From Candidatus Saccharimonadota bacterium (lineage in GTDB: Bacteria; Patescibacteriota; Gracilibacteria; Absconditabacterales; Absconditicoccaceae), in assembly GCA_965231145.1 (NCBI GenBank), contig OZ246420.1, forward strand, positions 690,001 through 722,000: a stretch of DNA of 32,000 bases, read 5' to 3'. This document shows positions 4,512 to 32,000 of this stretch, piece by piece (within the stretch, counting starts at the first letter, position 1; each line of letters opens with the position of its first letter). A program made the translations under genes and the position numbers. The notes beneath the pieces are model-generated. The model saw only the letters and a program-made list of their open reading frames with translations, had not been told where the DNA came from and ran no database searches.

Positions 4512-4901
4512 ATGAGAAAAGGAGCATATGCTATTATTATCAATGATGAAAAAGAGATTCTTCTGACCAAAAAGAAGGACGTCTATATTTTGCCATGATG
4601 AAAACATGATGAAGGAGAAGATGACGAAAAGTGTATCAAAAGAGAACTTGGAGAAGAGATATGTATTCCTGAGAACGATATTACGATAGGTCATCATTAT
4701 AAAGACTCCATATGAGCAACTCCTCACTCAAAAACAGAAATACTATGTAAAACCTATTTTGTAACCATTAAAGATGAGAGCGCTGTGAAAGCAGGTAGGG
4801 AAATTAGTGAAGTTTTACGAACACGTGAGTTTCAGAACCATAATCTCTCAGAGATTACTAGAGAGATTATAGAAGCGCTACAAGCTGACACACTGATATA
4901 A
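4512..4901 (+). CDS. Nudix hydrolase
   Basis: Not in the track, because it is broken by TGA. Translation: 'MRKGAYAIIINDEKEILLTKKKDVYILPGGKHDEGEDDEKCIKRELGEEICIP...'. This is a full Nudix box GGx5Ex7REUxEExGU whose GG is encoded TGA TGA (4596-4601). Stop TAA 4899-4901. Confidence 0.9.
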
Positions 4902-6782: not shown

Positions 6783-7026
6783 TTTACCATTGGTTATGGG
6801 GTAAAACTTCACTGCGCTGAGTATATCTATTGAAAGAGAAAAAGCAATCACAAAAAGGGTAAAATTCACCATCAATAGGAGACCTCAACCACATCTTTAT
6901 AATGTATTTTCTCTATGTCAATATACACTTCTCTTGCAAAAGAACAAAACTCTTCAAGTTTTTTACTATCCACACAAGTTCACTACAATGAGAGTATTAT
7001 ATTATATTCTTTTTCCATCTATCATC

Positions 7027-10000
7027 ATGAAAATACGCAAACATCACCGAGGGATTGCCCTAAGTTTTATCGCGATCAGTACTCTCTATTATTTCTGAAT
7101 GACAAGTCAGAAATCTTCTGCTGCTATGCTGGACTGTGCATCAGCGATGAGTATTACAGTACCGGTACAGGAGTGTCAGGGACTTGTAGAGCTCTTCAAT
7201 AACATGAATGGAGCTTCATGGACCAACAGTACAAACTGGAATCTTAATATCAATGTTTGTACTTGGTACGGAGTATCCTGTGCATTCCTTGATGGTCAGC
7301 GGCACGTGACCAGACTTTCTTTGGTAAATAACAATCTTTCTGGAAGTGGACTTCCGGCGAATATGTCTGGACTCAGATATATCACCGGTCTCGATTTAAC
7401 AACAAACCCCATAAGAGGAACCCTTCCATCAGAATGGTCAACGTGGACAGGAATACAAAGCTTTGCAATTTCACCAGCATATTCATTTCTCCTCTCAGGA
7501 ACATTACCTTCTTCATGGTCTACATGGACAAAGATCAAATACTTCAAAATTGGTCATGGTAATATCCAAGGTAATCTTCCTAGTTCTTGGTCTACATGGA
7601 CGGGTATACAACATTTTGAAGTAACACAAAATAACCTTACCGGAACATTACCTACTTCATGGTCAACGTGGACGGGTATCCAGCACTTCGGAGTAAGCGA
7701 CAATGACATAGAAGGATCGCTGCCATCAAACCGGTCAGGATGGATCAATATGTCATGATTTATCGCTTCCAACAACCAACTTACCGGCACACTTCCTACC
7801 TCGTGGTCAACGTGGACGAAGATTACTTCATTTGCTATTGATGGTAATCAAATCTCATGACCACTGCCTACAACCTGGTCAACATGGACGAAAATGAAAC
7901 GCTTTGGGGCAGGTAGCAATCAGCTAACAGGAACATTACCATCATCTTGGTCGACATGGACTGGTATCAATGTCTTTGAAGCCGGGAACAATCAGCTTAC
8001 CGGAACGCTTCCTTCTTCGTGGTCAACGTGGAGAAATCTTACATACTTTAGCGTACAAAATAACAAACTTCGTGGAACATTTCCATCAACTTACTCAGCA
8101 TGGAATTCGTTTGATGGACTTATTACTGTTTTCCGTAACAACTTTTTTGAAGGAGATATTCCTGCATCCTGGATAGGCATGACGGGGCTTTCAGCAACCT
8201 TCCTTAATAACAACTGTCTCAATCCCGTACAACCTAATCCTCCTTCAACATTTATCAATAGTAAAGCAGAAATCGGCTGGACAGGCACACAAACACACTG
8301 TGGAACCGATCTCGTTATTACTAAATCAAATAGCGCCTCTACAGGACTTATCGGATGAACATTCAACTATACTATTCACTATCTCAATAGCGGAGAGAAT
8401 GCTGTGACTTGAGCAAGCATCATCGACTACCTCTATTTATCTACAGGAGTTATGTTCGTCAGTTCTACTCCGACATTCACGAGTGAAACCGATGGGATGT
8501 ACTATTGGGATATTGGGACTCTTGAACCAATGCAATCCGGAGATATCGTTATCACTGTATCGTTCTCTGGGGATTATTTCTCTTCTGGAGACACCGTAAC
8601 AAACTATGCTGCTATCGGAGGATGGTATACATATGACCCAAATGAACTAAATAACGAAACCACTACTCCACCGGTCACACTTTTTGCTCCTGGAGCGACA
8701 GCTTCTGATCTCGTCATCAACAAGGTGAACGGAGCAGATACTGGTACTATCGGCGAACCTATTTCATATATTATCTCGTATTTCAATAGTGGAGACGTCA
8801 CTATTACAGGCACAAACATCTCTGACAGTCTACCGGGAGGTTTCAATTTCACAAGTGCATTTCCTGCTCCTACGCTTATTACTGGATCAGAGTTGTTCTG
8901 GGATATCGGAACTCTTACAGCGATGCAAAGTGGCATCATTATCATCACGGGATATGCAAACGAAACACTCGGATCCGGGGATGTTTTAGTAAACATGGCC
9001 GTGATCAATGGAATTCTTGATGACTATGATAACAATAATAATGTCTCTTTCACTTCACCTATCATACTTTTTGGTCCTACTATCTATTCGGATCTTACCA
9101 TCACGAAAGTAAATAATGCCGTAACAGGAACGATCGGTGGACTGATAAGTTATACTATCAATTATACAAACAGCTGAGCACAAACTGCTTCATGAATAAC
9201 TATTACTGATAGTTTACCTTCCGGATTATCTTTTGTTAGCGCGTTCCCAGCTCCTACTATAGCTACGTGATGAGATCTCTTCTGGAGTTTTGCTTCTCTT
9301 ACAGCAATGCAAACAGGCAAGATTATCATCACGGGATACATTGAAAATACTCTTGCTTCCGGAGATAGCATCATCAATACAGCTATCATTGATGGACTTG
9401 TCACTGATACTGCTACAGGAAACAATACTTCTACTACCCCACCCGTAACTGTTGTTGATCCTATTATATTCTCTGATCTCACGATTACTAAATCGAACAA
9501 TGCATCTACTGGCACAGTAGGTAGTCAGTTCAGCTATACGATCAATTATAGAAACAGCGGTGCCACTATGATCACAGGAATATCTATCGTTGATAGCCTT
9601 CCTGCCGGATTGTCCTTTGTCAGTGCTGCGCCAGCACCAACCATAGCTACATGAGGAAATCTCTTCTGGAATATTGGTACGCTGACTGCGATGCAATCAG
9701 GAAGCATTATCGTCACAGGATATCTTGAAAATACATTGTCATCCGGAGACACCATTATCAATACTGCTACTATTGATGGATTTCTTACCGACACTGTTAC
9801 AGGAAATAATTCCTCTACAACTCCTCCGGTAATTATATTTGATACGATAACATATGGGGATCTTAACATAGAAAAGATTGCAAATCAACTGACAGGAACA
9901 GCAGGAAACATCATCTCATATCTTATAAGGTATGTAAACGCAAGCTGAGCTCTTTCTCCTCTCTCTAGCATTACTATATCAGATCTTATTCCTGCAGGAC

Positions 10001-11316
10001 TGACATATATTTCCACAGACTTCTCATGATCTGCTGCAGACTTTAGCACAGGTATTACTGCTACCGGTTCAAATGTGACATGGAATATATGGAATGTAAC
10101 ATGATCTACTATCATGTCATGAGCATTCACTATCTATACCCAGATAGGAGCAGGCGTAGCATCAGGAACAGTATTGATGAACAGAGCGACTATCTTGAGT
10201 AGCGATATCATTGATATCTCTACAGGAGACAATACAGGTGTTGCTTCGGGCGTACTTGTCTTTGGACCACTTGTTACAGGAAACATGTCTGTCTTTAAAT
10301 TTACGGCAAATCCTATAGCTATCGCTTGAGACATCGTTTCATATATGCTGACATATCAAAATGATGGCGAAAGCACAGAAACAGGCATCTCTCTGATAGA
10401 TATTATGGATGATGGACTTACGTTCCTCGCAACAAACTTTACGACTGGATTGACTATTACTCCTATCGTCACTGGCGGCACGATCTTACACTGGAATATT
10501 ACCGGAAGCATCCTTCCTCACACATCAGGATCAATCCTTGTTTCAGCTATGGTAAACACCGGCGTTACTTCAGGAACTATCCTAGCAAACCACATCACTA
10601 TTACAGGAAATCGTACAGATACAAATCCGACATATGACTCAGACGTAGCATTCATTAATGTCATGGCTATCCCCGACGATCTGAGCGGAGGAAGTTATAG
10701 TACAACAGGAACCTCTACTGGCAATACGCCAACACCTCCAAACAATGATTCACGAGGATACGCAGGTGGTGGATTTGGAAGCAATCCTACGCCAAATATT
10801 GTCACACTCGGATCAGCTCCTACCCTCCTTGAGGATGAAGTATGTCCGTATAAAGATGGCGACTTTGAAAGATATAAAACAACTTTTAAAGATATTCAAA
10901 ATAGCGTCTTTAAACCAGCTGTAGATCTTATGCTCGACTACTGTCTCGTACAAGGTGAATACAACGGAGGAAAGATGTTTGGAGTATATAACTACCTCAG
11001 ATGGGGTGAAGCATATAAGGTATTCTCAAGACTTGCAGGTCTCAGCTTCTCTCGTACAGCCAATCCTGCTCACTGGTCAGACAGATATAGATTTGCTGGA
11101 CAGAAGGTGCATCTGTGGAATAGTATTACGTCACAGCGTCATGATCCAAGATCATATATCACGTATGCGGATATCTTTACACTCGGGAACAATCTTCTCA
11201 AATACTATAAGAAACCTCTTCTCGAGTACGACCCAACACTTAATTACAACAACGCAATCAGCAGAGGTAAATTTGCTCTGTTCATCCAAAACATTATCGG
11301 AAGAATCAAAAATTAA
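7027..11316 (+). CDS. Giant secreted surface protein: signal peptide, LRR repeats, DUF11 (conserved repeat domain) repeats, SLH-like C-terminus
   Basis: Six track ORFs (7099, 7894, 8452, 9307, 9691, 10345) are all in frame 1 and are separated only by TGA (about 15 in-frame TGA, no TAA/TAG). Start ATG 7027 ('MKIRKHH.GIALSFIAISTLYYF'). 1429 codons. Stop TAA 11314-11316. Confidence 0.85.
7318..8170 (+). repeat. About 11 LRR-type 24-aa coding repeats (consensus N.LTGTLPSSWSTWTGIQ.F)
   Basis: Read directly: 'GTLPSEWSTWTGIQSF', 'GTLPSSWSTWTKIKYF', 'GNLPSSWSTWTGIQHF', 'GTLPTSWSTWTGIQHF', 'GSLPSN(CGG)SGWINMSGF', 'GTLPTSWSTWTKITSF', 'G(TGA)PLPTTWSTWTKMKRF', and others. Confidence 0.85.
8304..10650 (+). 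repeat. About 6-7 DUF11-type ~125-aa coding repeats
   Basis: Recurring 'DL.ITK.N....G.IG...SYTI.Y.NSG......I.I.DSLP.G.SF.SA.PAPT......LFW.IGTL.AMQSG.III.TGY' with high nucleotide similarity between units (e.g. around 8910, 9300, 9680). Confidence 0.8.
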
Positions 11317-11408: not shown

Positions 11409-11419
11409 AACTACAATTG

Positions 11420-11492
11420 AGCGAGATACCGGATTCGAACCAGTGACCTCATCCCCCGGAGAGATGTGCTCTACCATCTGAGCTAATCTCGC
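11420..11492 (-). tRNA. tRNA with anticodon CCG; acceptor end looks tRNA-Gly-like, not Arg-like (identity uncertain)
   Basis: Minus-sense GCGAGAT TA GCTC AGATGGTA GAGC A CATCT CTCCGGG GGATG AGGTC ACTGG TTCGAAT CCGGT ATCTCGC T. Clean cloverleaf with canonical T loop. G1-C72, C2-G71, G3-C70, U73. U rather than A at position 20. Confidence 0.8.
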
Positions 11493-11569
11493 TGGTGGGC
11501 AGATTGGGAGTCGAACCCAAGACCTCCTGATTAAGAGTCAGGCGCTCTAGCCAGCTGAGCTATATGCCC
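11493..11569 (-). tRNA. tRNA-Lys (anticodon CTT), CCA encoded
   Basis: Minus-sense GGGCATA TA GCTC AGCTGGCTA GAGC G CCTGA CTCTTAA TCAGG AGGTC TTGGG TTCGACT CCCAA TCTGCCC A CCA. One acceptor mismatch (T6/C67). Abuts the next tRNA with no spacer. Confidence 0.9.
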
Positions 11570-11597
11570 TGCTTTATATAAAAGCGAAGTACTTAGT

Positions 11598-11625
11598 ATG
11601 ATATCTATTAGTCCTATAGAGTCAA
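11598..11625 (-). promoter_or_regulatory. Candidate sigma70-type promoter for tRNA-Lys/tRNA(CCG)
   Basis: Minus-sense TTGACT (11620-11625), 16 nt spacer, TATCAT (11598-11603), about 25 nt upstream of the tRNA-Lys 5' end. Confidence 0.4.
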
Positions 11626-11639
11626 CAGATTTAGGATAT

Positions 11640-11805
11640 AAAAAAAGCTTATAGGTTGATACCCTATAAGCCCCGGCTAAACCTGTAAGTAACTCACCGG
11701 TGGTCCAGCTATGGTGCCCCATGCGGAATTGTAACTAAGTACCCTAAGGTACCCCGAAGAGTCATAATATCTCCTCTGCAGGCACTCCACGCGTAGCCTT
11801 CCCTG
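11640..11805 (-). ncRNA. Candidate structured small RNA of unknown class, co-transcribed downstream of tRNA(CCG)
   Basis: A ~165-nt non-coding stretch, conspicuously GC-rich relative to its flanks, that starts right after the tRNA 3' end. It contains a C(UUCG)G hairpin (ACUC-UUCG-GGGU), a GUACC-UUAG-GGUAC hairpin and the palindrome CACCGGUG. It ends in a strong terminator GCTTATAGG-gtatcaa-CCTATAAGC + TTTTTTT (11640-11671). I could not match SRP, RNase P, 6S or tmRNA motifs. Confidence 0.45.
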
Positions 11806-11876
11806 TAGCCCGAACAGGATTCGAACCTGTACCAACAGAGACGGAGTCTGCTATCCTACCGTTAAACCATCGAGCT
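11806..11876 (-). tRNA. tRNA with anticodon CCG on a tRNA-Trp-like body (candidate CGG decoder)
   Basis: Minus-sense AGCTCGA TG GTTT AACGGTA GGAT A GCAGA CTCCGTC TCTGT TGGT ACAGG TTCGAAT CCTGT TCGGGCT A. A1-U72 first pair. The anticodon loop CUCCGUC differs from the tRNA-Trp loop CUCCAAA at positions 36-38. U37 is unusual. No A20. Weak D stem. Confidence 0.75.
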
Positions 11877-19258: not shown

Positions 19259-19341
19259 TTTCTATTTATCTATAAGATTTACTTCTGTGCTATGTTCAAG
19301 AGTTGGAAGAGAACATCAATGTTACGATTTTGTAGCTTTGC

Positions 19342-21249
19342 TCATGAAGCTATCATACCAGGCTTGTATCTATTGATAATAGTGACAAGCTGATCTGATG
19401 TAAGTAATGTTGATGCATTAAAGCTTGAGATAAGAGATTTCCCGTTTGCTGTGAGTCCCATAAGACCAAGATCACAGGCCTGTGTGATCACAGTCTGCAT
19501 ACTTGGTGTGAAAGTACTGTAGTCAGAGTATTTTGTTATGTCGCATAGAGCGTTATGGACGATAGTTTGTTTCTTCACATTTTTTGCAAACTGGACGAAC
19601 ATCTGAGCAGCACCATATCTTGAAACTGGCGCATACATTTGTGTTGCTGAGAGTTTTATAGGAGTAATACCATATCTATATGCCCATCCGATAAGTGTAT
19701 TTACAACGCTTATTGACGTCGTACCTGTTCCAAATGGCATAGGAGAAAGAACTGTCGATGTCGGACTCTTGATGATAATACCACTCGTAAGCACAGGAGT
19801 TATAACTCTTCCGGTGAAAATAGGATTTATAACCCTACCTGTAAGGACAGGAGTTATAACTCTTCCTGTAAGAACAGGATTGATGATTACTCATGTATTT
19901 ATTCTTCCGGTAAGCACAGGATTTATAATGACACCTGTATTTATTCTTCACGTAAAGATAGGATTGATAACTACTCCTGTATTCACTCTTCCGGTAAATA
20001 TTGGATTGATGATTGGTTTTCCTGTTGCGTAGATACTTGCATTACATCTTGTCATGAGATTTGGTACAAGTGGATTGATATACGTAATACTTATACCATA
20101 CACACCAGGCGTCATATATGTATGCCCACTGGTGAAGGTTGGCGGAACTCCACTTCAAAGCCATGGCCCGAAAGCGATTGGACCTTCTCCCCAATAAATG
20201 CTACCAATAACTCCTCCGAATCCTGTCAGGGTAATCGTTACAGGAAGTGGAGCCATGCCTGATGTCGGAGCAACAGAAAGATTACATGTTGGGATAGTAT
20301 ACTGACATGTAAGACTACATCCTGAACCTGGAAGACCATTGCTTGCTCCAAGATCACATTGTTCTGGTGCTTCCACAATTCCATTTCCACAGATTGGTCT
20401 TGGAGTACTTTTGCCCATAACGACTACTGTTGCTGAACACATGCTTGTGTAGTTCGGAGAGTATGGATTAACCGCACTTGCTGTTATCGTGTATGTCCCG
20501 CTTGTCATATATGTATGCGGTGTTGAAAACCATACACCTGTCACCGCAGTTCCTATCCATGGTCCAAATGTTGATGTACTATCTCCTCGTGAAACAGAAT
20601 TTATCTGTCCTACAGATCCTGTTACTGTTGCAATAACGTTGAGCGGAGCTGTTCCTGTTGTCGGAACAACAGTGATAGCACATTTTGGCATAACGAGTGT
20701 ACATGTTGCACTACATCCCGATGCTGGAAGGCCATTGTTTGCTCCTGCATCACACTGCTCTGGTGCTTCTACGATTCCATTTCCACAGATCGGTTGTACT
20801 CTTCCTGTATTGATCGGAGCTTTCGTACCTACGGCTACATTGTTGCTTGAGCAGAATGCGCTTGCATTACGGTCTATCCATGTAAACATCGGATCTGTAG
20901 CATATACTACGTTATTGGTAATAGTATATACTCCTGTAGTCGTATATGTGTGGTTTGCATACCAACGAACATGTGTTGGGTTTACCCATATCGATCCTGT
21001 GATTGGTCATGAGAAAAAACCATCTCCCCAGTTGATACTACTATATGCTTCGACATATCCACTTGAGATAGATCTGTATACTGTACCACTGAGTGTCACC
21101 GTATGAGGCACTGATCCTGCAGGCGGCGTTACCGAGATGTCACATATATCCCATGGGCCACTTGCAGCAAAAGTGCTTGAACCCACCGCAGCGACTAGAA
21201 GCGCGATTCACCGCATGTAAATCTTTTTTAGTTGTCTTCACATTTTCAT
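19342..21249 (-). CDS. Secreted surface protein: signal peptide, 3 PKD-like modules, 2 Cys-rich CGNG..E.CD repeats, 11-aa tandem repeat linker, SLH-like C-terminus
   Basis: Track ORFs 20155..20889 and 19342..19794 are in one frame with an open stretch between them. It extends upstream over TGA to ATG 21247-21249 ('MKMGRQLKKIYM.GIALLVAAVGSSTFA'). 'ICGNGIVEAPEQCD(A/L)GA(N/S)NGLP.SGCS.TC' occurs twice. 'P.(T/S)G.APL.V' PKD-like. 635 aa. Confidence 0.8.
19780..20019 (-). repeat. In-frame 33-nt (11-aa) tandem repeat, about 6-7 units
   Basis: 'PIINPIFTGRVNTGVVINPIFT-G-RINTGVIINPVLTGRINT-G-VIINPVLTGRVITPVLTGRVINPIFTGRVITPVLTSG'. The hyphenated G are TGA (19948-19950, 19891-19893); the same column is GGA/GGT in sister units. 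Confidence 0.9.
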
Positions 21250-25601: not shown

Positions 25602-27608
25602 TTACAGTCTCATTAGCATAAGCATCGCCCATCATCTTGGAAGCGGACTAAATAGATCTGTCTTCACTTTTATTACTCATAATTCATGCAGTTTATCTAC
25701 ATGTTTCACATACCGGTTCTCGTCATCTCCATTATAGGCTGATCCATATAATAACCTGGAGAGGATAGTTGCGAATTGTGCCTTAGTAACTGCTTCATCC
25801 GGATTAAAGTTTTTATTTACCTCATTAGTCACATTATTGATACCCATCACACCGAGCTGACATGCAAGCTTCGCATATATCTGATATTCTGCATCACCAT
25901 TTATCATATCATCAAACGCACACTCTCTGCTCTCATCCGGTTGCTTGTCCAATACATTGATCGCGTAATTACTGATCATTTTTGCCGCATCTCTTCTGAG
26001 TAATACTCATGTCATATTTGCCTTGATACAATCTGACATAGTTGTGATGCTGTGGCCATATGCAAAGTTATATGCATCATTCATCTCTCATTCCATACAG
26101 TTGAGCTGCTGTGGCTGTGCAACAATCTCACTTGATGATAAAATCTCAGATGAACTATCCGTATTATCATCCACCTGTTCTGTGGTGTCCTCTGACTCTA
26201 TCGTTGTTCAGGTAGCGGCGACAGTTGTTCAGGTAGCGGCGACAGTTGTTCAGGTAGTATCAGATGTAACTGCTACGCCTCATTGCAACAGACTCATTCA
26301 CTCACACAAACCATCATATTGCGTGGGAGATATATCTCCATTGGGACAGTTATCTACTGGTGCACGATAGACTTTTCCAGCTCACTGAAGAGCAGGACTA
26401 TTATCTCATGCTGATGCTATCAAACGAGTCATATATGGATCAGAAATGGGTGAGCCATTAAAATACTCAAAGTATCCAGCTACAATAATACTACCATCAT
26501 TATGCAACAGATGAGTATTAATTTCAGCATCAAAACCTGAACCTCCTACGAACGAGCTATCAAGCACCCCATTACTATCCAAACGAGCTATACGATTTGC
26601 TTCTACCCCACTATAAGAAGTAAATGCACCTCCCAGCAATATAGAATCTCCAGTTTCAATGGAGACAGATATCGGCACGTTATTAAATCATCCCCCCATA
26701 GTAAAACTTGTATCGAAACTTCCATCTGTATGTAAACGAGCTATGCGGTTTGCAGTATGACCATTATAATCAGTAAAAGAACCAACTGCAATTATCTTTC
26801 CATCTGACTGTGCAACAATTTGATATACATGGTGATTGAAACCAGAACCAACATTGAAACTATTATCTATAGTAGCGTCCTCATTCAAACGAATAATACG
26901 GTTTGAACTAACTCAACTAAAGTGAGTAAACTGTCACGCGGCAATTATCTTCCCATCGCCCTGTACAATCAATGACGACACCTCAAATTGACTAGTAATT
27001 TCACCGCTAAATAGACCGTTAGCTATATTAAATCACGTATCTCTCGTTCCATCTGTGTTGAGACGGACAAGAGCCCTCGTACTAAATCATGAATAGTTAC
27101 TAAAGTTTCATCATACAAGGAGTTTTCAATCTGTAAGTTGTTTGATCACACTTACCTGCTGACTGGAAGTGGGGAAACCCGAACCGATCTGAAACGTATT
27201 GTCTCTCGTCCCATCACTATTGAGACGCACTATACGATTGGTTGTAACACCACTAAATGATGTAAAACTTCCTCACACAACGACTTTACCATCCTGCTGT
27301 AACTCAATAGAAGCTACCGCGCTATTAAATGTACCAATAACATTAAATCACGTATCTCTCGTTCCATCTGTGTTCAAACGCAACACCCTACTCGCAGATA
27401 GTCCATTAAAATTACTAAAATATCCCGCAACGAGAATTTTACCATCGGGTTGTTCTATCATCTTCAAAGGTACATTATCAAGACCACTTCCTCCAGAATC
27501 GAATGTAGTATCAACCATCAAACCCGCAAATACAGCTCACGCATGAAATATAAATATACTCATTGCAATGACAGAGATCAAAACCCTACTATACTTCTTC
27601 ATAGACAT
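25602..27608 (-). CDS. Secreted delta-60/beta-propeller-repeat surface protein with Thr-rich linker and SLH-like C-terminus
   Basis: One frame from ATG 27606-27608 ('MSMKKYSRVLISVIAMSIFIF') through track ORFs 26688..26888, 26406..26678 and 25677..25979 to TAA 25602-25604. About 7 units of '..DGK....G.F..(F/Y).G.....R(I/L).RL..DG..D..F..G.GF'. More than 20 in-frame TGA, many on the repeat glycines. Confidence 0.8.
26203..26258 (-). repeat. 21-nt in-frame tandem repeat (2.7 units)
   Basis: GTTGTTCAGGTAGCGGCGACA at 26203 and 26224, partial at 26245. Encodes 'T-G-TTVAA' heptads with G = TGA each time. Confidence 0.9.
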
Positions 27609-27865
27609 AGAAAGAAAGTAAAAAAACACTTCCATCTTTTTACACAAGCCTACGCCTCTATTCAAGCGATAATAAAAAAAATGCCGTGAAGGCAAATCCT
27701 TGATTAGAGTATATTTTTTCTACTAATTTCTCATCAATTGGAGGTGATAAGAAAGTATTTCAACCGTTAAAATCTCTCTAATTACTCTATCTTGCTACGT
27801 TTCACGATTTCAGGAAGCTTGTTTTCAGTTCAGCAAGTATATTATAAATTATTATATTGAATTGT

Positions 27866-28348
27866 CTAGAAAATACTTTTAATGAATTTATATTCTTGTC
27901 TTTCTTCTATTCGGGGAAGATATTTTCATAGCTCAGACAATTTAACTTTTTTGACATATTTTATTTCTTCTTGCTTTGATTTTTCTTTATCTTTTTTTTG
28001 TATTATTATATCATGTAGTTGAATATATAATCTAAGTTACAGAATACTATCTAACGAAGCATTTTCACTTATCTCATAAAATCCAAAAAGATTTATTTTA
28101 GCCGTATGCTCTTTAAGAACAATATTGGTCTCCTCCTCTACTTCTCTGATTCATGTTTCAAAAATATTCTCATTCATTTCTGGTTTTCATCAGGGCATTT
28201 GCCACTCAGCTCAATTCTTAGAGACGATTATTACATTATTATCTTTATCCAAGATTCGAACATATACTTGTGATATTTTCTTTCCTCTTGGAAGATCTTC
28301 TAATGAATTTGTACTATACCAAACTCTAGTAATATTACTCTCTTCCAT
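27866..28348 (-). pseudogene. Nudix hydrolase interrupted by an in-frame TAA (pseudogene or read-through)
   Basis: 'MEESNITRVWY...WQMP-GG-KPEMNENIFET-G-IREVEEETN' is a full Nudix box (GG = TGA TGA 28187-28192). TAA at 28037-28039 after only 103 codons. The same frame stays open for 56 more codons to TAG 27866-27868 and encodes a Nudix-like C-terminus 'QEEIKYVKKVKLSELGKY'. Confidence 0.6.
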
Positions 28349-28422
28349 GAAATCTTTTCATATATAAATATTATAGCTTACTTAATTTTACACTTATCAT
28401 TTCATTTTTCCATAAATAAAAA

Positions 28423-28626
28423 ATGGCTTATTATAGCCACGAATGAAGCATTGGAGAACGTCGGGCACTTTTCGAACACTTATACTCAAACGTATTGTGA
28501 AAAGCCAATATTAGATATATTGGTAAATTAATGCAGTATTATATCAAAGAATTGGAAGGAGGGAAGGAACTAGAAGAAAGCCTTACGGAGAGGCAGAAAG
28601 TACTGTATTGATTAAAGCTTTTTTAA
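28423..28626 (+). CDS. Small hypothetical ORF (67 aa)
   Basis: ATG 28423 to TAA 28624-28626 with three in-frame TGA. No motif, in an AT-rich region, so it may be spurious. Confidence 0.25.
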
Positions 28627-28742
28627 GGATTTGAGATGTTTTAAAGAGTACAAGTTCATAGGATTTGAACTTAATAACATATTGATATATAGAGGACAAA
28701 AGATAAAAAGTGGCTTAAACTTATTTATAAGGAGAGCTAAGT

Positions 28743-30125
28743 ATGTGCAAAGGCGTATTTCTTTCATTTTTACCGTGTCAATTGCTAGATCCGACTTTAA
28801 TACGAAGTTCGGCAATCACACTTTTCTTATCTCTTTTATTACATTTTGTTCTACAGCATCGTTATAAAAATAGCTTAGAAAAGGAATTAGAGCAATATAA
28901 GCAAGCATTAAGTGAACAAAGTGAAGTATTTAAACATAAGTTAGCTCTATTTCAGAACTTTTTCATACAAGAATATCTACCTAAAAAACACCCAGACGCA
29001 GATAAAGACACTATTATGCTAGAATATTACTGAAAAATTTGATTATTGTGAAATATGAATACATTAAAAGCTATTGTGGACTCAAAACTTACAGAGTTAG
29101 AGCCAAACAAAGACGATATAGAGCAAACATACGCTTTATTGCTATCTCTAAGGCAAGAATTGAATTCCAATCTTAAAAATGATCCATCTATACTTGCAGA
29201 TTATGTAAAAGTTTTGTTTCAGATTTTCACTCCTATACCACAGTTTATTAGTGAAGACAGAAAAGTACAAACAGGTACAGTTCACTTTATTAACAAAGAA
29301 AAAATCAGCTATACCGAATTAGGCTCTTTAGTTGCCCTAAAAATGGGAACAGCATTAAAAAAACTGAGTAAGTGAGACGAGTTTGAATATATTAGAATTA
29401 AAGATATTAATTCTTTCAATAATGTACAATGAGAATTTTATAAGTTACCTTTACATTCAAAAGCATTTGATCTTGAGAATATACTGCTAGTATCAACTAT
29501 ATGAACTATTGGCAAGTTAGCTTTTATTAGAAATAAGACTAATGCCATTATATCGGGTAATTTGGCTTTTGGAAAAATTAATCCACAAATAATCAATCCT
29601 AGTTTCCTTGATCTTATATGGCAGACAGATTATGTTCAGTCTCAGTTAAGGTTGTTTTATGCGTGAACAGTACAAAAGTTTATTCCTTTATTTTCTCTTA
29701 AACAAATTACACTTCCTCTCTTACCTATCGAGGATCAAAATCTCTTGATTAAAAGAGCAGAGACAGAAGGCAAACTTATTGCCATCCAAGATTTTAATAA
29801 AGTATTACCTAAATTTCTTTCTAGAGAAGAATTATTAGCTTCTCAAATATATGATAGATATTGTAATCATCCAGCTATTCAAAATATTCAATTATCACCT
29901 ATTAATTTATTTGAAGGAATAGATTATGTTCCAGATATTTTTATTGAGCTAAAAAATTGACAGAAAATAGTGATAGAGTTAGTCAATGTAGATATTAAAA
30001 GAAATGATGCTTCTAGAATAAAATTCTTCCAGTTGGCGCCTGATCTATGATATTGTATGTCTTTTATGTATGAATATGACTTAAAATCTATACAGGAGAC
30101 AATTAATGACTTTATAAGTGATTAA
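28743..30125 (+). CDS. HsdS-like (type I R-M specificity) single target-recognition-domain protein with extra N- and C-terminal regions
   Basis: Track ORFs 28743, 29055 and 29745 are in one frame, joined over nine TGA. AAGGAG lies 8 nt upstream of the ATG. The core 'ELGSLVALKMGTAL...ILLVSTI-G-TIGKLAFIRNKTNAIISGNLAFGKINPQIINPSFLDLIWQTDYVQSQLRLFYA-G-TVQKFIPLFSLKQITLPLLPIEDQNLLIKRAE' follows the Methylase_S/HsdS TRD plus conserved-helix pattern. Stop TAA 30123-30125. Confidence 0.65.
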
Positions 30126-30141
30126 TCTGTAAGGAGTATAT

Positions 30142-30339
30142 TTATTCTTTTTCTAGTGGTCTTTGTGATTCTATTTTCAATCTCTTTTCTCTAGCTAATC
30201 TCTCGTTTCTTAAAGCAGTATTTCGTTTCATCATCCAAGCATAATATTTAGGATCATTTTCTTTTGTGACACTCATAAATAGATTAAAAACTTCTGTTAA
30301 TGCTTTTCATAAACCGTGGTCATCATCCTTCATATCCAT
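30142..30339 (-). CDS. Small hypothetical basic protein (65 aa)
   Basis: 'MDMKDDDHGL-G-KALTEVFNLFMSVTKENDPKYYAWMMKRNTALRNERLAREKRLKIESQRPLEKE*'. Convergent with the HsdS-like gene. Confidence 0.35.
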
Positions 30340-30458
30340 TTGTTATATAGCAATAAGATAAAAGGACATAATACATACTAATTTAAGTTAGTAAAGAAAT
30401 TGCAAAGTAAGGCATTAATCTTATATTGACGTAAATTTAATTACGTTATTTTATAGAT

Positions 30459-32000
30459 ATGTGAAGTATAATTAAGGAAAATAGTCCTTATATCCCTAGA
30501 TTAATAGGAATATATTTTGCAGAACCTTATAAAAGATTTGATAGATGAACAATTATCAATTTATCGCAAGATTATAATATTAGTAAAACTCCTCAATGAA
30601 ATGAATTTAGTGAATTTGATACTTCAAATTCTATTGATTTGTATGTGGAAGAAGAATTATGAGCAATAGTATTAAACATAGAAAAAACATTTAAAGATAC
30701 ATTTGGAAGAGTTTTATCTAACGCTATTGAATGATATTCAAATAATATTTCCACAAGAGCTATAATATGAGATAATTGAGCGGGGAAATCAACTATTTTA
30801 GAACTTATAGAAGGATTTTATAAAACAGTTAGTCGTAAAATTATTGCTGATTCAATTAATGAATTAAGAGAAGGTTTGGGTTATGTTAATTCTATTATTC
30901 CAGGCATAGTTTTTATAATCGTATGTAAAGATATTAAATGAAAAATAAGACATAAATTAGTAAATCTAACAAGAACTCAAGGTATATTAAGCTCTAAGAA
31001 TGAACTTAAATCAATCATTTTAGAAAATTATGATTTGTTAGGATCAGTATTAACGGATCATTTACATATTTGTAAAAACAAAGAGGATGCCGTACCAGTA
31101 ATAAATTTACGCTTACCTAACTTTTCACGTAAAAGTTGAAGAGAAAACATTATACCTTACTGGAACTCTTTAACTATATTTCTCTTTAATCTCATTAAGG
31201 AAGATAATGTTGAAACGTTCTTTCCAAATAACGAAGAAGCAAATTTATTAAATTGATATTTTCTTACAATATATCAATATTTAATAGAAAATAAGATCCC
31301 TAAAGAATCGATAATCTTCTTTTTCCTTTTTTATCATTTAGGATCTTTTGAATATGTGTCTCGCAAAGACTTAAAATATGATCCTCAAAGTGAAGAATAT
31401 AAACAAGTAATATTAGCCCATCAGATTACTATAGATATATATAAAGAAATTGCTCAAAAACATAAATCTACAGAGTATAATGATATAATTTCTAAATTGC
31501 TGTCATTAATAAATGCTTATCAAGATAGTCAAATAACTATTAGTGAAGTAGAAAGCAGAAAAGGATCTGATAGACTTGCGATTAATATGAAAGTTCCACT
31601 TTCTCCTGAATTAAAACTACCAAATATGTATAAATTCATTTTTGAAATCATACCCAAGCATTTAGTGAATGATTTAAAAGTTAGATCTATTCTAGAATAT
31701 AATTTAACTATTCCAATTGCGACTTTCCTTAATAATTTAACTAATATCGAAAACAATGAAACAAAGAAAGATCTATTAAAAGCCATTAAAAATCATTGGC
31801 TATTTACGGTAAATGTTAAATTGCAAACTCCCTCAGGGATACATTATCTCGACTCACTATCATCCTGAGAAAAACAAATGATATTACTTTTTTCTCGCAT
31901 AAAAAATAATATTTCTTCGTATTATGAGAACCCTATTAAAGATGAAGAAAACCAAAAGACATTGCCACATTTGATACTGCTTTTAGACGAGCCTGAAAAT
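30459..32000 (+). CDS. ABC/OLD-type (AAA_15/21-like) P-loop ATPase, 3' end beyond window
   Basis: A single frame is open from ATG 30459 to the window end (TGA as sense, about 12 of them). Walker A 'II-G-DN-G-AGKSTILELI' (30762-30800). A roughly 400-aa helical insert follows. Walker B 'LILLLDEPEN' occupies the last 30 nt of the window. Confidence 0.8.

What the first reader, a model, noticed from the sequence alone, without database searches (positions are those of the whole stretch)
28743..30125. Orphan HsdS-like specificity domain fused to unknown helical N-terminus and a nuclease-like tail
The 460-aa protein has one clear type-I-like TRD plus the 'P.L.EQ..I' conserved helix. It lacks a second TRD, and no HsdM or HsdR is encoded on either side within the window. 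Instead the TRD is preceded by about 170 aa of predicted helices ('LEKELEQYKQALSEQSEVFKHKLALFQ...'). It is followed by about 90 aa containing 'GIDYVPDIFIELKNGQKIVIELVNVDIK', which loosely resembles a PD-(D/E)xK core (D ... E.K). A DNA-sequence reader fused to a putative nuclease and placed next to an OLD/ABC ATPase is not an architecture I can assign to a described system.
Basis: partly seen in the sequence, partly recalled or inferred. Interest (0 to 1): 0.7.

Follow-up and report, generated by a model that had tools for sequence, protein, structure and literature searches.

The report
Orphan HsdS-like gene in defence island
A real 460-residue gene in a TGA-recoded bacterium carries one DNA-reading domain of the Type I restriction kind between two regions with no known relatives. 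It sits alone at the edge of a strain-specific defence island, and the proposed nuclease tail and link to the neighbouring ATPase are not supported.

Summary
The ORF is real. Window 28743-30125 (+) encodes 460 aa once all nine in-frame TGA codons are read as Gly (table 25). One Type-I-like TRD plus its conserved helix (aa ~186-373) is confirmed by PADLOC specificity models (E=1e-13). It is very divergent: Pfam scores 21.3 bits against a cut-off of 22.

The N-terminal 185 aa and the C-terminal 87 aa match no family, solved structure or protein in any collection searched. Both AlphaFold runs failed (pLDDT 34-38), so the fold is untested.

A Logan contig identical to the window extends the view 10 kb downstream. 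The neighbouring ATPase is not OLD. It is the A subunit of a complete ATPase+HNH pair (PDC-M62, Septu-like), followed by a complete PDC-M24 pair, a nonsense-mutated serine recombinase and Rep_1. No hsdM or hsdR lies within -27 kb or +10 kb.

A related genome has the same flanks (83-86% identity) but different defence cargo, so the site is a defence hotspot.

Best reading: a solitary, aberrant half-HsdS-type DNA-recognition protein with an unknown partner. It is a new variant of a known kind, of modest interest.

The parts
28743..30125 (+). HsdS-like ORF, 460 aa under table 25 (9 TGA=Gly codons; TAA stop)
   Evidence: The same gene is on record as P0005 (Logan, TGA read as W) and as table-11 fragments P0004 and P0006.
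28730..28734 (+). Shine-Dalgarno AGGAG, 8 nt upstream of the ATG
   Evidence: read directly from the sequence
28743..29297 (+). N-terminal orphan region, aa 1-185. It has a hydrophobic segment at aa 19-37 (Kyte-Doolittle 1.92, possible membrane anchor), then a charged heptad-like stretch (aa ~42-78) and further probable helices.
   Evidence: No hit in Pfam, PADLOC, PHROGs or NCBIfam. Exhaustive HMMER of aa 104-210 against 1.84 billion representatives finds only itself. Hydropathy. The coding signal is weak for aa 1-40 and clear for aa 41-185.
29298..29747 (+). Type-I-like target recognition domain (TRD), aa ~186-335
   Evidence: PADLOC Specificity_I E=9.6e-14; Pfam Methylase_S 21.3 bits against a cut-off of 22; NCBIfam MAD5 and PRK09737 at E~1e-4
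29748..29861 (+). Conserved-region helix following the TRD (aa ~336-373). The TRD-helix junction motif LPLLPIEDQNLLI is at aa 333-345.
   Evidence: Alignment to the HsdS structures 5ybb_D and 3okg_A across 'PLPPLEEQRRIV'. The tblastn alignments to plasmid HsdS run to aa 373.
29862..30122 (+). C-terminal orphan tail, aa 374-460. It is acidic (pI 4.5) and beta-prone, and contains PD397-398...D418-I-K420 and ELK/ELV strings.
   Evidence: No family, PDB or homolog match. Motif statistics. The coding signal is clear. AF2 was unusable.
28423..28626 (+). 67-aa ORF upstream on the same strand (3 TGA), unknown function; possibly co-transcribed with the target
   Evidence: also called as a gene in Logan; weak coding score of 0.13
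30142..30339 (-). 65-aa antisense ORF between the target and the ATPase; it argues against a shared operon
   Evidence: called as a gene in Logan; coding score 0.25
30459..32000 (+). ABC-type AAA_21/AAA_15 ATPase (PDC-M62A, PtuA-like), 658 aa, running to window-equivalent 32435. Its HNH partner (PDC-M62B) follows 2 nt later.
   Evidence: (PDC-M62A 3.1e-27; PDC-M62B 2.3e-21)
28037..28348 (-). Short (103-aa) Nudix gene inside the island
   Evidence: NUDIX 3.1e-9
27715..32000 (.). Left part of a ~11-kb low-GC (0.25-0.35) strain-specific segment. It runs from window 27715 to window-equivalent 38691 and is replaced by unrelated cargo in relative L012.

Best explanation
The gene encodes a solitary, highly diverged member of the HsdS (Type I specificity subunit) family reduced to one TRD plus one conserved helix. 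This unit is embedded between a lineage-specific N-terminal region (possibly membrane-anchored, probably helical) and a small acidic C-terminal domain. It is cargo at the left edge of a ~11-kb strain-specific defence hotspot in a table-25 (Absconditabacteria/Gracilibacteria-type) genome.

Shown: the ORF is intact and coding throughout. The TRD and its helix are present. There is no adjacent hsdM/hsdR. The gene lies in a defence island, and the neighbouring ATPase belongs to a separate ATPase+HNH (Septu-like) pair.

Inferred mechanism: the protein is a sequence-specific DNA-recognition module. Like engineered and natural half-HsdS proteins, it would pair its helices, as a homodimer or with its own N-terminal helices, to present the TRD(s) to DNA. 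It would depend on catalytic partners encoded elsewhere, most simply a Type I HsdM/HsdR in the same chromosome. This is how orphan hsdS genes on plasmids and genomic islands are thought to act. The roles of the N-terminal region and the tail are unknown.
For: - TRD and helix.
- Intact, coding-like ORF in all segments from aa 41 to 460.
- No MTase or helicase motif in the window, and no hsd genes in 10 kb downstream.
- Island context with two complete candidate defence pairs (PDC-M62 AB and PDC-M24 AB) on the same strand.
- The same chromosomal slot holds other defence-like cargo in relative L012 (PD-DExK/NucC-like 6e-22; SMC/LmuB-like 8e-17).
- Literature: a half HsdS dimerises into a functional S subunit (PMC6158711). 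Orphan hsdS genes occur on plasmids and genomic islands and are linked to Type I systems elsewhere (PMC13335696). Related Absconditicoccaceae carry two to four hsdRSM systems (PMC13059738).
Against: - Natural half-HsdS proteins are about 200 aa. Here 272 of 460 residues are non-HsdS sequence that could block HsdM binding.
- The helix preceding the TRD shows no similarity to HsdS conserved regions.
- It could not be established whether this genome encodes any HsdM or HsdR.
- There are no homologs, so conservation and co-occurrence cannot be assessed.
- The island is decaying: the recombinase has an in-frame TAG and the Nudix gene is short. The gene could therefore be on its way out.
Confidence: 0.35

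Rival explanations
1. Non-functional or decaying relic. An old hsdS-derived gene (total length 460 aa, like a full HsdS) has flanks that drifted beyond recognition. It survives as an open frame in an eroding island but no longer does anything.
For: - The TRD is barely recognisable to Pfam (21.3 bits, below the cut-off of 22).
- The N-terminal 185 aa equals the length of a TRD1 plus conserved-region unit.
- The first 40 codons have an ambiguous coding signal.
- The island recombinase carries a nonsense codon and the Nudix gene is truncated.
- There are no homologs anywhere.
Against: - 460 codons stay open at 6.4% stop probability per codon (P~5e-14).
- The codon-usage signal in frame is uniform (0.29-0.37 bits per codon) across the N-terminus, TRD, helix and tail.
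- There is a strong RBS.
- The gene is identical in three independent assemblies.
Confidence: 0.2
2. One reading: a self-contained defence effector in which the TRD reads a DNA sequence and the C-terminal tail is a minimal PD-(D/E)xK-type nuclease that cuts it.
For: - Strings of the PD...(D/E)xK kind are present (PD397-398...D418-I-K420). The strict pattern occurs in only 4.6% of shuffles.
- The tail is beta-prone around these residues.
- The gene lies in a defence island.
Against: - The tail has no match to any Pfam, NCBIfam, PADLOC or PHROGs model or PDB sequence, and no homolog.
- At 87 aa the tail is shorter than known PD-(D/E)xK domains.
- The best-placed strand reads E-L-V, not E-x-K.
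- A genuine PD-DExK protein of the same lineage is detected at 6e-22, so divergence alone is not a full excuse.
- A TRD-guided nuclease with no cognate methylase would attack its own genome unless its site is absent from it.
Confidence: 0.12
3. An element-encoded anti-restriction or regulatory protein. The HsdS-like decoy would sequester the host's HsdM/HsdR, or act as a sequence-specific DNA-binding factor, for the benefit of the integrative element that carries it.
For: - It lies on a segment bounded by a serine recombinase and Rep_1.
- The non-HsdS flanks could disable productive complex formation.
- Type I systems are common in the lineage.
Against: There is no precedent tested here and no homologs. 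The cargo around it is defensive rather than anti-defensive.
Confidence: 0.1
4. A third, specificity-conferring subunit of the adjacent Septu-like ATPase+HNH system. The TRD would direct or trigger PtuAB on particular DNA.
For: Same strand and adjacent position. ATPase+HNH systems lack an obvious sequence reader.
Against: - A 333-nt gap separates the genes. It holds a promoter-like site at 30400-30427 and a coding-like antisense ORF.
- PDC-M62 is a complete two-gene model that coincides with Septu calls.
- No PDC-M62 or Septu component model matches the target.
- No co-occurrence data could be obtained.
Confidence: 0.08

Closest known systems
Type I R-M specificity subunit HsdS, especially half-size (single-TRD) and orphan hsdS genes on plasmids and genomic islands
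   Same: It has a Methylase_S-type TRD followed by the conserved helix with the P-L-x-(E/D)-Q junction motif. It is solitary and sits on a mobile or variable island, as reported for lactococcal orphan hsdS genes (PMC13335696). One TRD plus one helix is the unit that dimerises in half-HsdS constructs (PMC6158711).
   Different: It is 460 aa rather than about 200 (half) or about 400-460 with two TRDs. 185 aa before the TRD and 87 aa after it have no HsdS similarity. No hsdM/hsdR lies within -27 or +10 kb, and there are no inverted repeats or shufflon features.
TRD modules of single-chain Type IIG, IIB and ISP enzymes
   Same: A single HsdS-like TRD flanked by helical segments within a larger polypeptide (PMC6158711).
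   Different: There is no methyltransferase, nuclease or motor domain in the protein or upstream of it. No NPPY-type motif occurs in any frame.
MAD5, the HsdS-like component of the MADS methylation-associated defence system
   Same: The TRD matches the MAD5 models (PADLOC mad5 9.9e-9; NCBIfam 1.2e-4).
   Different: The score of 21 bits is far below the 400-bit equivalog cut-off. Only the TRD aligns, and no other MADS genes are present.
Septu (PtuA ATPase + PtuB HNH), PADLOC PDC-M62: this concerns the neighbour, not the target
   Same: The downstream genes match PDC-M62A (3.1e-27) and PDC-M62B (2.3e-21), with weaker hits to PtuA and PtuB. They are adjacent with a 2-nt gap.
   Different: The target matches no component of these systems. 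The neighbour is not an OLD-family protein, because it has no TOPRIM domain.
PD-(D/E)xK nucleases
   Same: Short strings compatible with PD...(D/E)xK in a beta-prone stretch of the tail.
   Different: There is no profile, sequence or structural match, and the tail is only 87 aa. The pattern is common by chance.

Membership tests
HsdS (Type I specificity subunit, Pfam Methylase_S) | At least one Methylase_S-type target recognition domain | tested here: met
   PADLOC Specificity_I E=9.6e-14. Pfam Methylase_S E=3.4e-4 at 21.3 bits is just under the cut-off of 22.
HsdS (Type I specificity subunit, Pfam Methylase_S) | TRD followed by a conserved helical region with the PLPPLxEQ-type junction | tested here: met
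   LPLLPIEDQNLLI at aa 333-345 aligns to PLPPLEEQRRIV of 5ybb_D and 3okg_A. The tblastn alignments extend to aa 373.
HsdS (Type I specificity subunit, Pfam Methylase_S) | Canonical architecture: TRD1-CR1-TRD2-CR2, or a ~200-aa half subunit | tested here: not met
   Only one HMM stretch is found. The N-terminal 185 aa and the 87-aa tail resemble neither a TRD nor a conserved region.
HsdS (Type I specificity subunit, Pfam Methylase_S) | Encoded with hsdM (and usually hsdR) in one locus | tested here: not met
   None in 27 kb upstream or 10 kb downstream. Orphan hsdS genes are nevertheless known.
HsdS (Type I specificity subunit, Pfam Methylase_S) | Assembles with two HsdM subunits into an M2S methyltransferase | not testable with these tools
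   This needs biochemistry.
PD-(D/E)xK nuclease superfamily (tail, aa 374-460) | Match to a family profile or to a solved member | tested here: not met
   There are no hits for the tail in Pfam, PADLOC or PHROGs at E<=10, nor in the whole-protein NCBIfam scan at E<=1. The PDB search gave only chance-level hits, none of them a nuclease. No protein homolog was found.
PD-(D/E)xK nuclease superfamily (tail, aa 374-460) | Catalytic D...(D/E)xK residues on adjacent strands | tested here: inconclusive
   The strings are present. However, D...ExK occurs in 22% of shuffles, the generic form in 44% and the PD-anchored form in 4.6%.
PD-(D/E)xK nuclease superfamily (tail, aa 374-460) | alpha-beta-beta-beta-alpha-beta core fold | tested here: inconclusive
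   Single-sequence AF2 gave mean pLDDT 33.6 for the full length and 37.6 for the tail. These models are unusable. No alignment could be built because no homologs exist.
OLD-family nuclease (neighbouring ATPase) | ABC ATPase fused to a C-terminal TOPRIM domain | tested here: not met
   The full 658-aa protein has AAA_21, AAA_15 and ABC_tran only. Its partner is an HNH protein.
Septu / PDC-M62 (neighbouring gene pair) | AAA_15/21 ATPase immediately followed by an HNH nuclease | tested here: met
   PDC-M62A 3.1e-27 and PDC-M62B 2.3e-21, with PtuA/PtuB hits. There is a 2-nt gap between the genes. The motif CPYCG...HLDHF...CCQTCN is visible. PDC-M62 calls coincide with Septu calls.

The most novel reading that the evidence does not exclude
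A single-gene defence or targeting protein of a new type. A Type-I-style TRD would act as the DNA sensor and be wired directly to novel effector parts: an N-terminal membrane-anchored helical region, and/or an 87-aa minimal nuclease-like domain unrelated to catalogued families. It would work without any methyltransferase partner.
Probability: 0.1. Interest if true: 0.7.

Novelty: new variant of a known kind. Interest (0 to 1): 0.3.

Why it matters
If functional, this protein would show that the Type I TRD-plus-helix unit can be detached from the methyltransferase context and combined with unrelated domains. That would extend the known structural malleability of Type I systems into a candidate-phyla-radiation lineage with an altered genetic code.

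There is also a practical lesson. Recoded genomes hide such genes. This gene is stored in public collections as table-11 fragments and as a Trp-substituted read-through, so standard searches miss it.

The locus also documents a defence hotspot in these episymbiotic or predatory bacteria, with swappable cargo next to a serine recombinase and Rep_1 module.

Tried and rejected
- Homolog searches for the target all came back empty beyond generic TRD hits: word-indexed search of 5.8 billion proteins with the full length and the tail; GTDB genomes; IMG/VR; JGI metagenomes; phages; plasmids, where only the TRD matched at ~25% identity; and exhaustive HMMER of aa 104-210, which found only itself.
- The partial ATPase had no close relatives either.
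- Exact-DNA look-ups of the window end in genome and metagenome collections found nothing.
The work-around was the Trp-substituted Logan record P0005, found through its cluster.
- AF2 on P0005 and on aa 329-460 failed, so no fold search was run.
- Tail or N-terminus as a degenerate second TRD: rejected.
- Paralogous domains elsewhere in the 40-kb locus: none.
- hsdS shufflon or inverted repeats: none.
- An RNA gene in the 400-nt upstream gap: none.
- Identification of the organism from the literature was not achieved.

Full report
**The observation**

The frame 28743-30125 (+) has nine internal stop codons under table 11. All nine are TGA, and the frame ends in TAA. Reading TGA as sense restores long ORFs across the whole window.

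TGA means Gly, not Trp. It sits at the conserved glycines of an SDR (CPgTIDTP), of Nudix boxes (PggK) and of the neighbour's Walker A motif (gDNgAGKST). I masked the TGA positions of the SDR with X and compared it with solved structures. The homologs carry G at two of the three positions and never W.

The gene has an AGGAG 8 nt before its ATG. An open frame of 460 codons has a chance of about 5e-14 at this composition, where TAA/TAG make up 6.4% of random codons. A codon-usage log-odds trained on the other island genes is positive only in frame 0. It reaches 0.29-0.37 bits per codon for every segment from aa 41 to 460, including the N-terminal region and the tail. Only the first 40 codons are ambiguous. 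The ORF is therefore a real, intact gene, not a chance frame or an obvious fusion to non-coding DNA.

**What the protein contains**

PADLOC's Type I specificity models match aa 184-342, with a best E-value of 9.6e-14 and 32 models hit. Pfam Methylase_S matches the isolated segment at 21.3 bits, just under its cut-off of 22. NCBIfam gives only weak TRD-level hits to MAD5 and a Type I S subunit.

The junction motif LPLLPIEDQNLLI aligns with PLPPLEEQRRIV of the solved HsdS structures 5ybb and 3okg. The tblastn alignments to plasmid HsdS proteins run from aa 187 to 373 at about 25% identity. So there is one TRD plus one conserved helix.

The 185 residues before this unit and the 87 after it match nothing in Pfam, PADLOC, PHROGs, NCBIfam or the PDB. 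They show no similarity to the TRD, to each other or to any other ORF of the 40-kb locus.

Residues 19-37 are hydrophobic enough for a membrane helix (Kyte-Doolittle 1.92). The tail is acidic, with pI 4.5.

**The nuclease idea**

Only the PD-anchored form is uncommon, at 4.6%.

No homolog of the tail exists in the word-indexed 5.8-billion-protein search, even at E<=10. The table-25 sequence could not be submitted for structure prediction. A Trp-substituted record of the same gene (P0005) was accepted, but with no alignment available both runs gave mean pLDDT of 34-38. I therefore did not run fold searches.

By contrast, a genuine PD-DExK/NucC-like protein in a related genome is recognised at 6e-22. 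The nuclease reading is thus unsupported, though not formally excluded.

**Relatives**

None were found. The searches covered the full-length protein in the 5.8-billion set, GTDB genomes, IMG/VR, JGI metagenomes and phages. An exhaustive HMMER pass of aa 104-210 over 1.84 billion representatives returned only the gene's own table-11 fragment.

That fragment's cluster showed how the gene is stored in public collections. It appears as 96- and 106-aa fragments from a 1,107,293-bp NCBI genome, and as a 460-aa Logan protein with W at the TGA sites.

**Context beyond the window**

The Logan contig (L003) is identical to the window over 4,656 bp and adds 8.1 kb downstream of the window's end. The neighbouring ATPase is 658 aa with AAA_21 and AAA_15 domains and no TOPRIM, so it is not OLD. 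It matches PDC-M62A at 3.1e-27.

The next gene starts 2 nt later. It carries a CPYCG...HLDHF...CCQTCN signature and matches PDC-M62B at 2.3e-21, along with PtuB models. PDC-M62 calls coincide with Septu calls in a published survey (PMC11811056).

After this pair come four more features:
- a complete PDC-M24 pair: DUF6978 at 6.7e-31 and DUF1828/1829 at 5.3e-67;
- a 425-aa probable membrane protein;
- a large serine recombinase interrupted by one in-frame TAG;
- a Rep_1 protein.

No hsdM or hsdR occurs there. No [ND]PP[FYW] or DE[AC]H motif occurs in any frame of the window.

The target is separated from the ATPase by 333 nt. This gap holds a promoter-like site and an antisense 65-aa ORF with a coding-like score. 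There is thus no positive evidence for an operon.

**A variable hotspot**

The Rep_1 protein has close relatives on other contigs. In L012 the flanks are conserved at 83-86% nucleotide identity. These flanks are the DUF5122/SLH propeller gene on the left, and the end of the recombinase plus Rep_1 and the cation-efflux gene on the right.

The roughly 11 kb between them in our genome (window 27715 to window-equivalent 38691) is replaced in L012 by an unrelated 8.5 kb. That segment carries a PD-DExK/NucC-like protein, an SMC/LmuB-like ATPase and an intact 515-aa recombinase. GC falls to 0.25-0.35 in both inserts. None of the ten related loci encodes anything like the target. The gene is therefore strain-specific cargo of a defence hotspot.

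**Interpretation**

What is shown is a solitary, intact, very divergent single-TRD HsdS-family gene with two orphan flanking regions, lying in a defence island.

What is inferred is that it is a sequence-specific DNA reader. The most economical mechanism is the one documented for half-HsdS proteins, which dimerise into a working S subunit with HsdM and HsdR (PMC6158711). The same applies to orphan hsdS genes on plasmids and islands (PMC13335696). Type I systems are common in related Absconditicoccaceae (PMC13059738). I give this reading 0.35, because the 272 non-HsdS residues are unexplained and no partner could be sought in the rest of the genome.

The rival explanations are:
- a decaying relic (0.2);
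- an element-encoded decoy or regulator (0.1);
- a third subunit of the adjacent Septu-like pair (0.08).

**Verdict**

This is a new variant of a known kind. It is an orphan without relatives, which limits both its testability and its generality. Interest is modest.

Noticed in passing
whole window: The genome uses genetic code 25 (TGA=Gly). Public collections hold its genes inconsistently: as table-11 fragments (NCBI-derived P0004 and P0006; Logan L002) or with Trp at TGA (Logan L001, L003, P0005). This hides them from ordinary homology searches.
   Followed up: yes
window 30459-32000, continuing in L003 3115-5989: A complete Septu-like pair: a 658-aa AAA_21/AAA_15 ATPase (PDC-M62A 3.1e-27) and a 298-aa HNH protein (PDC-M62B 2.3e-21) starting 2 nt later.
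   Followed up: yes
L003 6152-7397: A complete PADLOC candidate system PDC-M24: DUF6978 (6.7e-31) plus DUF1828/DUF1829 (5.3e-67). Its function is unknown.
   Followed up: partly
L003 9636-11471 and 11550-12482: A large serine recombinase interrupted by a single in-frame TAG at codon 173 (otherwise in frame and conserved), next to a Rep_1 rolling-circle replication protein. In relative L012 the recombinase is intact (515 aa) but unrelated at the DNA level except for its last ~120 nt.
   Followed up: partly
L012 1242-9798 versus window 27715 to L003 11347: The same chromosomal slot holds unrelated defence-like cargo in a related genome (DUF6602 PD-DExK/NucC-like protein; SMC/LmuB/PDC-S06-like ATPase). 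This makes it a defence hotspot with swappable inserts.
   Followed up: partly
L004-L010, just upstream of the Rep_1 homolog: In other relatives a 104-aa protein with a weak HSDR_N (Type I R-subunit N-terminal nuclease) hit precedes Rep_1. Upstream of it the gene content varies (DuOB, DUF488, acetyltransferase, IS1595, KilA-N).
   Followed up: no
window 30142-30339 (-) and 28423-28626 (+): Two small ORFs (65 and 67 aa) lie in the gaps flanking the target. Both were called as genes in Logan. The antisense 65-aa ORF has a coding-like codon score (0.25). Neither matches a family.
   Followed up: partly
window 28037-28348 (-): A short (103-aa) Nudix gene lies inside the low-GC island. A second Nudix gene lies at 4512-4901 (+).
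   Followed up: no
window 25602-27635 (-): A 677-aa secreted protein with seven DUF5122 beta-propeller repeats and an SLH domain. A perfect 21-nt tandem duplication at 26203-26244 coincides with the point where the Logan contig L001 breaks (26232).
   Followed up: partly
window 11419-11876 (-): Two tRNA-Arg(CCG) genes and one tRNA-Lys(CTT) gene are clustered within 460 nt.
   Followed up: no
window 6988-11316 (+) and 19279-21249 (-): Large repeat-rich probable surface proteins (1,442 aa with WSTWT-type leucine-rich-like repeats; 656 aa with DUF4215-like Cys-rich repeats). Such proteins are typical of episymbiotic candidate-phyla-radiation bacteria.
   Followed up: no
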